DNA of 64,000 bases from Octopus sinensis (taxonomy: Eukaryota), in the NCBI RefSeq assembly GCF_006345805.1, contig NW_021834615.1, positions 7,832 to 71,831 on the forward strand, read 5' to 3'. Of this stretch, positions 12,470 to 15,400 are shown one piece after another. The position numbers are program-made. Within the stretch, counting starts at the first letter, position 1. Each line of letters begins with the position of its first letter.

Positions 12470-15400
12470 CTATATATATATATGTATACATATGATGAGA
12501 TGGTTAATGTACAGCTACGATCTGAAGCATTTAGCCACACACAGCTTACACTAAGATAAACACTAATATATATACACCACAATTCGTTCACACGTGACTA
12601 AACACGACTCATTTTAAGGGTCAAATTGTAATGAATGTTTCCGTTATTTCATATATAACTTTGCTTAATATCTTTTTTATATGATTTATTCTTACCAATT
12701 CTAGGTGTGGTTGGTGGGCAATTCTTTGCCCACTTTGGTGGCGGAAGTAATCTCTTGTGTCTACCCAACGATCCCATTTGGGCCAATTATACTGCAGTAG
12801 GTGAAGTTGGTGGTTGGATTTATGGCAGTGAATATCAGTTAGATTTATACCCAACTAATAAACTCTTTTCTTTTGCTAACGCCGAATCAATTCATGATCA
12901 CAACGTTCCGTGTGCTATCTGTTTGACACGAAAACCTGCTGTTGTTATGATGTTACCAGCCAGGAATGAGTGTTACACTGGTTGGACAGCTGAGTATTCG
13001 GGATATTTGATGAGCGAGCGTCATAGTCATCAGGGCAGACATGAATATGTGTGTGTGGACTATGCACCAGAAGCTGATCCAGCAGGTTACAGAGACGAAA
13101 ATGGAGCTCTACTGTATTTCGTTCAGGCTGCTTGTGGTTCATTGCCATGTCCACCGTATGTCAATGGTCGAGAATTAACCTGCGTTGTGTGCAGTAAATA
13201 CTGAATCGAACTTACATTCGTGTTTATATGAAAATTTATGTCGGCGAATCATAAAATATATATAATAAAGCAACATATACGTTTCTTGTAATTGTGTTTC
13301 GCAGTATTTTATCCAAGTAATATATGTCGTTAAAAAACTGCGGCTACAAGTTTTCAGAAAATATTCAAAACGAAACAACAGAGACGTCATAGAATGTGAC
13401 AAATAGCTTAACAGAACGATGTAATCCTCAGGGAATGATTCTAGAATACATTGCATGAGGTTCAGTTTATCAAATTTAAAAGTTGAAATAAAATTATGAT
13501 TCGTTTAAATGTAGTCCGTCTTAAAATGAAAACAATCCCCAAATGAAACACCTCCGTACAAATATATCACCCTTTCATGATCAATCTTCAGAAAACACGA
13601 TAAAAGCTTATGACTAACATCACTAAATCATGATGGTTTAATAAAAAAAATACTCCCATACGTATCATTGTAACTACAATCGATGCGATGAAAGCTCTGC
13701 AATCCAATCGCGGATATTACCAAATAAAGGATATTTGATATCCACTGAAGAAATACCACAAAATGTTGACTACCTAACTACTTGTCAGGTTATTAATACA
13801 TTGAAGTTTTCACGAAACACTTTCGTCAAGGGTACAAGTACACGTCCCACGATTAACTATTTTCAACCTACATTCACATATTCCCGCTTTTCTACAAAAG
13901 TCACACACACACACAGCCTTGCGTCACATTACACACGCAGCCTCTCATCGTTCCCTGAAAACTGATGTGCCAAAATAAATATGAATCCACCAAGAAATAT
14001 GAGTACACTTCAGGAACAGCATCAACCGAATCTACAGCAACACCACAAAACATCGAGTTCAACAATTATCTCCGTCTGTAACATAAAACTATCAAAAACT
14101 CGCAAAGAGGAACTTGCTTCGAGATACATGCATACAATAACTGTAACACACATAAACGACTTAGTAAGGAAAGGACCACGACTTATAAAATATACATTAG
14201 GTGGAATCAGTGCAACATGTTGAGTCTTTCACAGTCTACTCAGCATGATTGCTACTTGTATGTGGGAGTTTGTAGAATGGCTGCCAGATAAACGAAGGTA
14301 TCCGAGGAAAGAGGGATTGTGGGTGGCAGCACGTTTTTTGTCCGATTAATTGCGTGCCATAAGAATGCTCGATTGTGAAAAAGCTAGAGAAAAAGAATAA
14401 TAATTAAGTAATATGAAAGCACGAAATGCAAATTGACAAATGAATATATGGAAACATTCAACATGGCGTTTCCAGTGAACAGTATTAGCGCTCAGTATTA
14501 GGCATAAGCAATTTTGGGTTCGTTAAAATGTGCTAGTGGCATATTTCAAACTCTAAACGCAAATTCTGTGCAAAAAGCTGCAAAAAAGCATATCAGTCCA
14601 GTGCTGCTCCCTATCGGGTGCCAGTTCAGTCGTTATCAAAAGAAAATACCGAAGAGGGGAATTTCTGGACAAACTTAAATCCATAGCTTTAACTAAAACA
14701 TAGTCAACAACAACGAGTAAGTGACGCCATTAGAGCGCCAGGCTGGAGTCTGTCGTGAGTTACCTCCCTTCGGTATTTCTCTTTCATAAATTCTTCGCTA
14801 GAGGAGTTGACTTCAACCTTGTGCCCCAACAGTAACTGCGGTCGCTCGTACGGGCCCGCATCTTTCTTCTGTGTGTGTGTGTGTGTGAGTGTTTGTGTGT
14901 GTGTCAGTGTGTCATGTGTCATGTGTGTGTGTGTGTGTGTGTCATTTTGTGTGTATCACTGTGTGTGTGCCAGTGTGTGTCAGTGTGTGTGTCACTGTGT
15001 GCTTTTGTGTGTGTTTTTGTCAGTGTGGTGTGTGTGTGTGCGTCAGTGTGTGTGTGTGTTGTGTGGTGTGTGTCAGTATGTGTGTGTGTGTCATGTGTGT
15101 TTCACTGTGTGCGTTTGTTTGTGTTTATGTCAGTGTGTGTGTGTGTCAGTGTGTGTGTCAGTGTATGTCAGTATGTGTTGTGTGTCAGTGGTGTGTGTGT
15201 AAGTCAGTGTGTGTATTTGTGTGTGTGTATGTATGTCAGTGTGTGCGTGTGTATGTGTGTCGTGTGTGTGTGTCATTGTGTGTCAGTGTGTGTGTGTGTG
15301 AGTGGGTGTGTTGTGTGTGTGTGTGTGTGTTGTGTCTTGTGTCTGTCTATTTGTTGGTTGAACGAAATACTTCCCACACTGAATATTAAAACAGTTTCCC

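What the first reader, a model, noticed from the sequence alone, without database searches (positions are those of the whole stretch)
13094..13110. All four 5'/3' haplotype combinations, with a recombination switch inside about 14 bp of exon 4
Seen: upstream of this point A groups with D and B with C. Markers are NYTA vs NYTT, RNEC vs RT.C, LMS vs LMT, synonymous GAC vs GAT in VD, RDE vs RNE, the intron 2/3 ends (10511 ~ 57216 vs 22071 ~ 41606) and the block 24254-24690 = 45431-45860 found only in B and C. Downstream, A groups with C and B with D: GALL vs GAVL, 3' flank 13205-15355 ~ 46624-49300 versus 25418-30635 ~ 59741-63430. So A=aX, B=bY, C=bX, D=aY, with the switch between aga(g/a)ac and gct(cta/gtt). 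Inference: unequal crossover or conversion at this site recombines variable-loop cassettes with 3' ends and downstream spacers.
Basis: seen in the sequence. Interest (0 to 1): 0.7.

Follow-up and report, generated by a model that had tools for sequence, protein, structure and literature searches.

The report
Mosaic tandem paralogs in an octopus array
Four neighbouring copies of an octopus gene have swapped blocks of sequence with one another, and the reported "switch" is the sharp left edge of one such block, which is ordinary behaviour for tandem gene families.

Summary
The window holds a tandem array of at least four "short-chain collagen C4-like" genes (A-D, plus exon 1 of a fifth). Gene A's exon 4 is 100% identical to an Octopus sinensis protein on a 71.8-kb contig.

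What holds up:
- Downstream of 13095, all 106 of 106 informative sites group A with C and B with D.
- Around exon 3, 61 of 62 informative sites give AD|BC.
- The two trees reject each other (AU tests).

What does not hold up:
- There is no single two-by-two switch inside 14 bp. Between about 12460 and 13094 the four copies are star-like. Synonymous divergence is 0.22-0.31 for every pair.
- In the 5' part of exon 4, AD|BC is only 6 of 11 informative sites (p = 0.12), and the other trees are not rejected.
- One cited marker, the LMS serine, uses unrelated codons in A and D.

13095-13108 is best read as the 5' edge of a block made of the exon 4 tail plus the 3' spacer. That block was homogenised in pairs: A-C differ by 4.3% and B-D by 4.0%.

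Best explanation: repeated interlocus gene conversion or unequal crossover, anchored in conserved segments and microsatellites. This is a known kind of event, of modest interest. Assembly error cannot be excluded without reads.

The parts
12705..13204 (+). Gene A exon 4, including the stop codon. It encodes the cysteine-rich domain resembling the spongin NC1 domain.
   Evidence: ORF and tblastn mapping. Acceptor AG at 12703-12704. 100% identical to P0063, named Octopus sinensis short-chain collagen C4-like.
13095..13108 (+). Interval between the last AD|BC site (13094) and the first site of the unbroken AC|BD run (13109). It is the 5' edge of the pairwise-homogenised tail and spacer block. Homologous intervals are B 25308-25321, C 46513-46526 and D 59631-59644.
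   Evidence: Site list, counts and Fisher test, AU tests on either side. The A-C pairwise maximum chi-square test allows an edge as early as 13042.
12462..13094 (+). Star-like core: the tail of intron 3 plus the 5' 390 bp of exon 4, which carries the hypervariable patches. No pair of copies is close here.
   Evidence: Pairwise divergence is 11-18% in the exon part and dS is 0.22-0.31 for all six pairs. AU tests are unresolved. Informative sites are 7, 5 and 4.
13205..14869 (+). Type X 3' spacer after gene A. Its partner after gene C is 46621-48269.
   Evidence: A-C: 70 mismatches in 1611 aligned bases, 4.3%. X versus Y is about 30% divergent for about 400 bp and then cannot be aligned.
25418..30125 (+). 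Type Y 3' spacer after gene B, carrying (AC)n and (TGTA)n arrays. Its partner after gene D is 59741-63150.
   Evidence: B-D: 59 mismatches in 1474 aligned bases, 4.0%, over the first 1.5 kb. Sliding windows are 90-98% identical. Repeat arrays.
14870..15346 (+). (TG)n array at the right end of the X spacer, just before the promoter and exon 1 region that is shared by all copies. Equivalent arrays lie at 30126-30633, 48270-49292 and 63151-63422.
   Evidence: Tandem Repeats Finder. The switch from pair-specific similarity to similarity among all copies occurs here.
12286..12493 (+). (AT)n array in intron 3 of gene A. The B-C sister signal ends here and the star-like core begins.
   Evidence: The block found only in B and C ends at 24690/45860.
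10498..10950 (+). Intron 2 tail and exon 3 (10843-10919) of gene A, the 'a' type shared with D 57203-57655. The 'b' type is B 22041-22650 and C 41577-42190.
   Evidence: A-D 4.7% and B-C 6.0%. 61 AD|BC, 0 AC|BD and 1 AB|CD over A 10424-11123. The AU test rejects the other trees at 1e-5.
24918..25417 (+). Gene B exon 4.
46126..46620 (+). Gene C exon 4. It has one extra T in a T run at about 46535, roughly 10-20 bp 3' of the switch interval, which breaks the reading frame.
   Evidence: Alignment column 478. Two tblastn pieces in different frames. ORF listing.
59242..59740 (+). Gene D exon 4. It lacks one base at its very start compared with A-C, so the frame does not join to exon 3.
   Evidence: Two overlapping ORFs, 59136-59462 and 59222-59740.
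31047..31190 (+). Exon 1 of gene C: start codon and a hydrophobic stretch. Other copies are B 15766-15908 (frame broken), D 49713-49856 and a fifth gene at 63842-63985.
   Evidence: tblastn with P0003 and P0067 and alignment A2.

Best explanation
The window is a head-to-tail array of paralogous octopus genes. Each has four exons, and exon 4 encodes a cysteine-rich domain like the spongin NC1 domain, with hypervariable loops on an almost invariant framework.

The copies have repeatedly exchanged blocks of sequence by interlocus gene conversion or unequal crossover, so each segment of the repeat unit has its own history.

The reported site is the 5' edge of one such block. That block comprises the last 96-110 bp of exon 4 plus the 3' spacer, up to a (TG)n array in front of the next gene's promoter. 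Within it, A and C share one spacer type (X) and B and D share another (Y). Each pair is about 4% apart, and X versus Y is about 30% apart.

Inferred, not shown: exchange of a divergent spacer needs homology on both sides. The nearly invariant exon 4 tail on the left and the 97-100% identical promoter/exon 1 on the right provide it. This is why the edge falls in the most conserved part of the exon.

The upstream a/b grouping belongs to a different block, around exon 3 and intron 3. It ends near an (AT)n array about 600 bp before the switch. The core in between keeps four old, separate lineages.
For: Shown:
- Downstream of 13095, 106 of 106 informative sites are AC|BD.
- Over A 10424-11123, 61 of 62 informative sites are AD|BC.
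- AU tests reject the alternative trees in both regions, but in neither the intron 3 tail nor the exon 4 5' part.
- Synonymous divergence drops from 0.264 to 0.040 for A-C and from 0.261 to 0.044 for B-D across 13094. Cross-pairs stay at 0.16-0.24.
- The four pairings have similar ages: X 4.3%, Y 4.0%, A-D 4.7% and B-C 6.0%. Promoters differ by 1.4-1.7%.
- Segment edges coincide with (AT)n at 12286-12493 and with the (TG)n arrays.
- The switch lies between the two longest stretches identical in all four copies within exon 4, 13061-13083 and 13117-13154.

Family-wide mosaicism:
- PHI test p = 0.0004-0.007 on 19 paralog domains.
- The segment at aa 83-113 is uncorrelated with all other segments in Mantel tests (r from -0.09 to 0.15).
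- Some patches in C and D are identical to those in different paralogs elsewhere in the genome.

The window contains no N.
Against: - No reads were available, so a misassembly of this unplaced 71.8-kb contig is not excluded.
- Three of the four copies carry 1-bp frame breaks. This could mean low consensus quality.
- The order, direction and number of exchange events cannot be reconstructed from four copies. Donors may lie outside the window.
- A-C and B-D share a similar age and apparently a similar left edge. A single two-gene duplication would explain that more simply, but that model predicts B and D to be about 4% apart along the whole gene. They are 14-20% apart in the core and around exon 3.
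- The B-D left edge is poorly located. There are 9 mismatches in 163 bp after 13042.
- The PHI and Mantel tests were run on amino acids, not DNA.
Confidence: 0.7

Rival explanations
1. There are two 5' haplotypes (a, b) and two 3' haplotypes (X, Y), joined in all four combinations by one crossover or conversion point inside about 14 bp of exon 4.
For: - Locally, over 13043-13204, the pattern looks reciprocal. A and D are identical over 13043-13108, B and C share the states at 13060 and 13094, and from 13109 onward A matches C and B matches D.
- Moving the edge left past 13094 would need parallel changes in both pairs at the same site (inference).
- AD|BC is the best tree for the exon 4 5' part.
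Against: - The AD|BC advantage there is only 2.3 lnL units, and the other trees are not rejected.
- AD|BC accounts for 6 of 11 informative sites, p = 0.12.
- A-D dS is 0.247 and B-C dS is 0.234 in the exon 4 5' part, against 4.7% and 6.0% divergence around exon 3. The a and b haplotypes therefore do not reach the switch.
- At framework synonymous sites B-C is the most divergent pair, pS 0.200.
- The LMS serine codons differ, AGC versus TCC.
- The intron 3 tail is star-like.
Confidence: 0.12
2. Assembly artefact. The contig was misjoined or mis-polished between similar paralogs, so some of the combinations do not exist as real molecules.
For: - The only exact protein match sits on an unplaced 71,831-bp contig, while most paralogs are on a 55-Mb chromosome.
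- There are four 1-bp frame breaks in B, C and D, three of them in short runs of one base.
- One frame break lies about 10-20 bp from the switch in C.
Against: - There are no gaps in the 64 kb.
- Blocks are kilobases long with uniform divergence of 4-6% inside pairs and 18-30% between pairs. That is far above allelic levels.
- A star-like zone separates the two groupings, which is not what an abrupt misjoin would leave.
- The 1-bp indel to substitution ratio in non-coding pairs is 5:59 and 14:70, not clearly inflated.
- All four combinations of D/N at aa 131 with L/V at aa 136 also occur in paralogs from other contigs. The N-L combination also occurs in an O. vulgaris protein, P0067.
Confidence: 0.08
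3. A dedicated diversification mechanism. Loop-coding cassettes are copied into genes from other paralogs or pseudogenes, with the invariant framework, including the exon 4 tail, acting as the preferred exchange point.
For: - The hypervariable patches fall in loops of a confident model, pLDDT 89.3.
- Patch dN/dS is 0.57-1.20, against 0.06-0.27 in the framework.
- The PHI test is significant.
- Whole patches are identical between otherwise different paralogs. C shares HV2 with P0064 and HV3 with P0070, and D shares HV3 with P0076.
- Frame-broken copies sit next to intact-looking ones.
Against: - Nothing distinguishes this from ordinary germline gene conversion in a large family.
- No somatic data, expression data or recombination signal sequences were seen.
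- dN/dS in the patches is about 1, not clearly above it.
- The block that ends at this site carries spacer DNA, not loops.
Confidence: 0.07
4. No recombination at all. The conflicting markers are parallel substitutions, driven by selection on a few codons.
For: - For the exon 4 5' markers this is plausible. The LMS serine arose twice.
- D/N at aa 131 is a single transition, and both states are widespread in the family.
Against: It cannot explain 106 of 106 non-coding and coding AC|BD sites downstream, 61 of 62 AD|BC sites around exon 3, or the shared kilobase-scale spacers and indels.
Confidence: 0.03

Closest known systems
Concerted evolution of tandem gene arrays by interlocus gene conversion and unequal crossing-over
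   Same: - Head-to-tail paralogs.
- Segments with mutually rejecting trees.
- Tract edges in conserved sequence.
- A promoter and exon 1 that are nearly identical in all copies.

The processes themselves are listed for clustered immune genes in passages I read in PMC8634487.
   Different: Here the coding core that carries the variable loops is the least homogenised part, while its flanks are homogenised in different pairings. The direction and the donors of the exchanges are unknown.
SpTransformer (Sp185/333) gene clusters of the purple sea urchin
   Same: Clustered small genes surrounded by short tandem repeats, some of them in segmental duplications, sharing regions of sequence in a mosaic. 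This comes from the abstracts of PMC10887614 and PMC9623053 seen in the search listing and from the reference title 'putative microsatellite-mediated gene diversification' seen. In the octopus array, segment edges also coincide with (AT)n and (TG)n arrays.
   Different: The protein family is unrelated. The octopus genes have four exons and long introns. No immune role or induced expression is known for them, and the mosaic units here are loops on a folded domain, not repeat elements.
Spongin short-chain collagens (collagen IV variants)
   Same: - The exon 4 domain matches proteins named short-chain collagen C4 from sponges, cnidarians, molluscs and amphioxus at E 1e-40 to 1e-83.
- There are ten cysteines in exon 3 plus exon 4, counted from the translations. 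This fits the 'seven shared plus three spongin-specific' pattern described in PMC5395295 (passages read).
- The top Foldseek hits are all collagen IV NC1 domains.
   Different: - No collagenous Gly-X-Y part. The octopus proteins carry no Pfam collagen domain, whereas several non-octopus relatives carry PF01391.
- Exon 1 instead encodes a hydrophobic stretch.
- The structural match to NC1 is weak: E 0.04, TM 0.27-0.29, and 0 hits at E <= 0.001.
- Pfam finds no family in exon 4.
MHC-type pattern of homogenised introns and flanks around old, divergent specificity-coding exons (recalled from memory; no paper read here)
   Same: Flanks coalesce recently (about 4-6%). The loop-coding core keeps deeper lineages, with dS 0.22-0.31.
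   Different: These are paralogs in an array, not alleles. Balancing selection was not tested, and the deep zone also includes about 240 bp of intron.

Membership tests
Recombinant (mosaic) paralogs produced by gene conversion or unequal crossover | Significantly different tree topologies in adjacent segments | tested here: met
   AU tests: 10468-11123 supports AD|BC and rejects the others at 1e-5. 13095-13620 supports AC|BD and rejects the others at 1e-32 or below.
Recombinant (mosaic) paralogs produced by gene conversion or unequal crossover | A localised breakpoint with a significant change in site patterns | tested here: met
   Fisher p = 2.5e-11 across 13094/13095. A-C maximum chi-square 40.8, permutation p <= 0.0005, breakpoint range 13023-13067. 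The edge therefore lies between about 13042 and 13108.
Recombinant (mosaic) paralogs produced by gene conversion or unequal crossover | The combinations exist on real molecules and are not an assembly chimera | not testable with these tools
   No reads and no second assembly of this locus were available. Indirect evidence only: no N in the window and the same marker combinations in other paralogs.
Single reciprocal crossover between two 5' and two 3' haplotypes (four-gamete configuration) | A-D and B-C are close sister pairs right up to the switch | tested here: not met
   In 12704-13094, dS is 0.247 for A-D and 0.234 for B-C, the same as all other pairs. AU tests do not reject the alternative trees. 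The intron 3 tail is star-like.
Spongin short-chain collagen family | NC1-like C-terminal domain with the conserved cysteine pattern | tested here: met
   Sequence homology to named family members at E down to 1e-83. Cysteines are invariant or nearly invariant across 87 sequences. There are ten cysteines in exon 3 plus exon 4, against the 7 + 3 pattern in PMC5395295.
Spongin short-chain collagen family | A short collagenous (Gly-X-Y) domain attached to the NC1 domain | tested here: not met
   The Pfam column shows no collagen domain in any listed Octopus protein. Exons 1-3 mapped contain no Gly-X-Y run. These are therefore collagen-less relatives.
Spongin short-chain collagen family | A fold like the collagen IV NC1 domain | tested here: inconclusive
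   The model has pLDDT 89.3. All top Foldseek hits are collagen IV NC1, but with E 0.04-0.09 and TM 0.23-0.29. Sequence search of the PDB found nothing.
Programmed cassette diversification (chicken Ig pseudogene conversion, VLR, VSG; recalled from memory) | Somatic or directed copying from silent donors into an expressed acceptor | not testable with these tools
   Only one germline sequence is available. No expression or somatic data.

The most novel reading that the evidence does not exclude
Octopuses may have turned the collagen-less spongin-NC1 domain into a large, fast-diversifying surface or secreted recognition family. O. sinensis alone has about 20 distinct paralog domains. On this reading, loop-coding patches are shuffled among tandem copies, including frame-broken ones, by conversion tracts that start and stop in the invariant framework. 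The exon 4 tail edge at 13095-13108 would then be one of several preferred exchange points.
Probability: 0.2. Interest if true: 0.6.

Novelty: new member of a known kind. Interest (0 to 1): 0.3.

Why it matters
As it stands, this is a clean worked example of mosaic evolution in a tandem array, and a warning against applying a four-gamete argument to four paralogs sampled from a larger family.

It would matter more if the family proves to be a diversified recognition system. The combination of hypervariable loops on a rigid disulphide-rich scaffold, a large lineage-specific expansion, microsatellite-bounded exchange blocks and significant mosaicism is what is seen in invertebrate immune-type families.

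Two searches of the paper library found nothing on this family in cephalopods beyond one peptide in an ink proteome (PMC10142993, passage read).

Tried and rejected
- **No family or structure match by sequence.** Pfam on exon 4 of A, B and D found 0 families. A sequence search of the PDB found 0 hits.
- **Bad alignment in intron 3.** The first four-way MAFFT alignment of intron 3 misplaced B and C opposite a block of about 250 bp that only A and D have (A 11850-12100; seen). I therefore discard the 61 AD|BC 'sites' counted for A 11872-12131 and the AU result for that segment. What remains there is one shared indel. In the properly aligned 12095-12290, D is the outlier.
- **Microsatellite columns dropped.** The six AD|BC sites at 12409-12432 lie inside the (AT)n array, so I dropped them.
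- **Whole-alignment breakpoints unusable.** Maximum chi-square breakpoints over the whole alignment were dominated by the badly aligned left end, so I redid them on 12462-13620.
- **Two-gene duplication model rejected as a sole cause.** A single tandem duplication from 13100 to 46520 would explain the equal ages of the X and Y pairs. It predicts that B and D are about 4% apart throughout, and they are not.
- **Sequencing error as the cause of the frame breaks.** The test was inconclusive.
- **Literature searches that found nothing.** Searches for the sea-urchin analogue failed under the old name (one search was a term error; two searches gave 0 papers) before worked. The O. sinensis assembly paper was not in the listing.
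- **Not done.** Exons were handled one at a time, and only exon 4 went to the databases. As a result, no DNA of the other paralogs or of other octopus species could be examined.
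Full report
**What the window is**

The 64 kb contain no N. They hold a head-to-tail array of paralogous genes on the + strand.

- The exon 4 translation of the first copy (A, 12705-13204) is 100% identical to an NCBI protein named short-chain collagen C4-like from Octopus sinensis (P0063, on a 71,831-bp contig). It is 74-85% identical to many other O. sinensis, O. vulgaris and O. 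bimaculoides proteins, most of them on a 55-Mb chromosome.
- tblastn with three of these proteins maps four exons per gene:

| Exon | A | B | C | D | Fifth gene |
|---|---|---|---|---|---|
| 1 | not in window | 15766-15908 | 31047-31190 | 49713-49856 | 63842-63985 |
| 2 | 4312-4371 (plus an older second copy at 8082-8135) | about 19693-19749 | 39195-39248 | 54668-54721 | - |
| 3 | 10843-10919 | 22392-22468 | about 41927-42004 | about 57545-57622 | - |
| 4 | 12705-13204 | 24918-25417 | 46126-46620 | 59242-59740 | - |

- I searched exon by exon.

**Checking the observation**

Downstream of the proposed switch the signal is overwhelming:
- Between 13095 and 13620 every one of 106 informative sites groups A with C and B with D.
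- The other two trees are rejected (p-AU 1e-32 or lower; for the 110 coding bases alone, below 0.01).
- In the spacers, A-C differ at 70 of 1611 aligned sites (4.3%) and B-D at 59 of 1474 (4.0%).
- X and Y differ by about 30% for the first 400 bp and then cannot be aligned.

Upstream, around exon 3, the opposite grouping is equally solid:
- There are 61 AD|BC, 0 AC|BD and 1 AB|CD sites over A 10424-11123.
- The alternative trees are rejected at 1e-5.
- A-D differ by 4.7% and B-C by 6.0%.

The trees on the two sides are therefore incongruent.

**Where the simple picture fails**

The two groupings do not meet at 13094-13110.

- From about 12460 to 13094 (the last 240 bp of intron 3 and the first 390 bp of exon 4) the four copies are star-like.
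- In the exon 4 part, raw divergences are 10.8-17.8% and synonymous divergences are 0.22-0.31 for all six pairs.
- The proximal intron tail, 12556-12703, is 7-10% for all six pairs.
- The AU test is flat for the intron tail. For the exon part it favours AD|BC by only 2.3 lnL units, with the alternatives at p-AU 0.215 and 0.127.
- Informative sites in 12704-13094 are 6 AD|BC, 3 AC|BD and 2 AB|CD (binomial p = 0.12).
- A and D, supposedly one haplotype, are 15.4% apart there. At framework synonymous sites B-C is the most divergent pair.
- The 'LMS' marker is a parallel change: AGC in A, TCC in D, ACC in B and C.

With four sequences, AD|BC says only that B and C are sisters. In intron 3 between about 11127 and 12290, D is simply the outlier and A resembles B and C (72 sites private to D).

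I discarded two sets of apparent AD|BC sites as alignment artefacts:
- A 11872-12131, where MAFFT placed B and C opposite a block of about 250 bp that only A and D possess.
- A 12409-12432, which lies inside an (AT)n array.

**What the 14-bp interval is**

It is the gap between the last non-AC|BD site (13094) and the first site of the unbroken AC|BD run (13109).

- On four-taxon patterns this is the most likely position for the left edge of the AC|BD block. Putting 13094 and 13060 inside the block would need parallel changes in both pairs (inference).
- On the A-C comparison alone the change point falls after 13041 (range 13023-13067). After 13041, A and C differ at only 4 of 163 sites, which is the flank rate.
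- The edge therefore lies between about 13042 and 13108.
- This is the most conserved part of exon 4. There is one variable column in 13064-13093 and none in 13124-13153. The two longest stretches identical in all four copies, 13061-13083 and 13117-13154, lie on either side.

**The whole unit is a mosaic**

| Segment | Pattern |
|---|---|
| Exon 2 block | Star-like (8, 11 and 6 informative sites) |
| Intron 2 tail and exon 3 | AD\|BC |
| Middle of intron 3 | A, B and C alike, D apart |
| Insert found only in B and C | 24254-24690 = 45431-45860 |
| Core | Star-like |
| Exon 4 tail and spacer | AC\|BD |
| About 600 bp of promoter plus exon 1 | 97-100% identical in all copies |

Two of the segment edges coincide with microsatellites: (AT)n at 12286-12493, and (TG)n at 14870-15346, 30126-30633, 48270-49292 and 63151-63422.

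**Mechanism**

The best reading is repeated interlocus gene conversion or unequal crossover among tandem paralogs.

- I infer that the divergent X and Y spacers were replaced as blocks, using homology in the invariant exon 4 tail on the left and the homogenised promoter/exon 1 on the right.
- That would explain why both pairs have similar ages and why the edge sits in conserved coding sequence.
- A single two-gene duplication would also give equal ages. It predicts B and D to be about 4% apart throughout, whereas they are 14-20% apart in the core and around exon 3.
- The four cores have their closest relatives outside the window. B's domain is 91.6% identical to P0065. C shares one whole patch with P0064 and another with P0070. 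D shares one with P0076.
- The four copies are thus a sample from a larger exchanging family. That further weakens a four-gamete argument.

**The protein and its variable loops**

- An alignment of 19 O. sinensis domains shows five or six hypervariable patches in an almost invariant framework.
- An AlphaFold model built on 87 sequences is confident (pLDDT 89.3) and places the patches in loops between strands.
- Among the four window copies, patch dN/dS is 0.57-1.20 and framework dN/dS is 0.06-0.27.
- A PHI-type test on the amino-acid alignment is significant (p = 0.0004-0.007). The segment at aa 83-113 has a distance matrix uncorrelated with every other segment.

**Family placement**

- The domain is homologous to proteins named short-chain collagen C4 across invertebrates.
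- The octopus genes have the cysteine-rich domain but no collagenous part. Exon 1 encodes a hydrophobic stretch instead.
- All top Foldseek hits are collagen IV NC1 domains, but they are weak (E 0.04, TM 0.27-0.29).
- Pfam and a PDB sequence search found nothing.
- A peptide of an O. vulgaris family member is listed in an ink proteome (PMC10142993, one passage read).
- Two library searches found no other cephalopod work on this family.

**Caveats**

- Three copies carry 1-bp frame breaks, and B's exon 2 is also degenerate:
  - B: a G run in exon 1 and a lost base in exon 3.
  - C: an extra T at about 46535, only about 10-20 bp from its switch interval.
  - D: a lost base at the first codons of exon 4.
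- These are either young pseudogenes or consensus errors in an unplaced contig. The non-coding indel to substitution ratios do not settle it.
- Without reads, an assembly chimera cannot be excluded. However, the kilobase-scale blocks with uniform divergence, the absence of gaps, and the occurrence of the same marker combinations in paralogs from other contigs, one of them (N-L) also in an O. vulgaris protein, all argue against it.

**Verdict**

This is a new example of a well-known process, mosaic evolution of a tandem family. The nearest described analogue in layout is the sea-urchin SpTransformer clusters, which are microsatellite-flanked (abstracts; passages).

Noticed in passing
B exon 1 about 15831; B exon 3 about 22422; C exon 4 about 46535; D exon 4 about 59244: Four single-base frame breaks in three of the four copies, three of them in short runs of one base. 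B's exon 2 (19693-19749) is also degenerate. They are either young pseudogenes or consensus errors. Only gene A has a matching annotated protein (P0063).
   Followed up: partly
window 3674-6260 versus 7950-10184: Gene A carries an older internal duplication of the exon 2 block (72-80% identity). It gives two exon 2 copies (4312-4371 and 8082-8135) and an extra exon at 6201-6260. The annotated protein P0063 uses all three. Copies B-D lack the second block.
   Followed up: partly
window about 300-3021, minus strand: A fragment of a non-LTR retrotransposon. One ORF has a CCHC zinc knuckle (1696-3021) and another has an AP-endonuclease domain (950-1561). It sits where intron 1 or exon 1 of gene A would be expected, and no exon 1 for A is in the window.
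   Followed up: partly
15300-16050, 30580-31330, 49250-50000, 63385-64000: About 600 bp upstream of the start codon plus exon 1 are 97-100% identical in all four visible copies. This is far more alike than any other segment, so either this part is strongly homogenised or it was spread very recently.
   Followed up: partly
exon 4 codons 6-11, 30-38, 45-54, 88-92 and 104-113 (A: 12719-13042): Hypervariable patches in predicted loops on an almost invariant disulphide-rich framework. Across 19 O. sinensis paralog domains, whole patches are identical between otherwise different genes, and a PHI test for mosaicism is significant.
   Followed up: partly
27390-28227, 28783-29115, 29724-29957, 61645-62187: Large (TGTA)n arrays, up to 210 units, fill the Y-type spacers but not the X-type spacers.
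   Followed up: no
A 11850-12100 and D 58545-58820: A block of about 250 bp in intron 3 is present in A and D and absent from B and C. A and D are only about 75-80% alike within it, by eye from the alignment. It misled the automatic alignment.
   Followed up: partly
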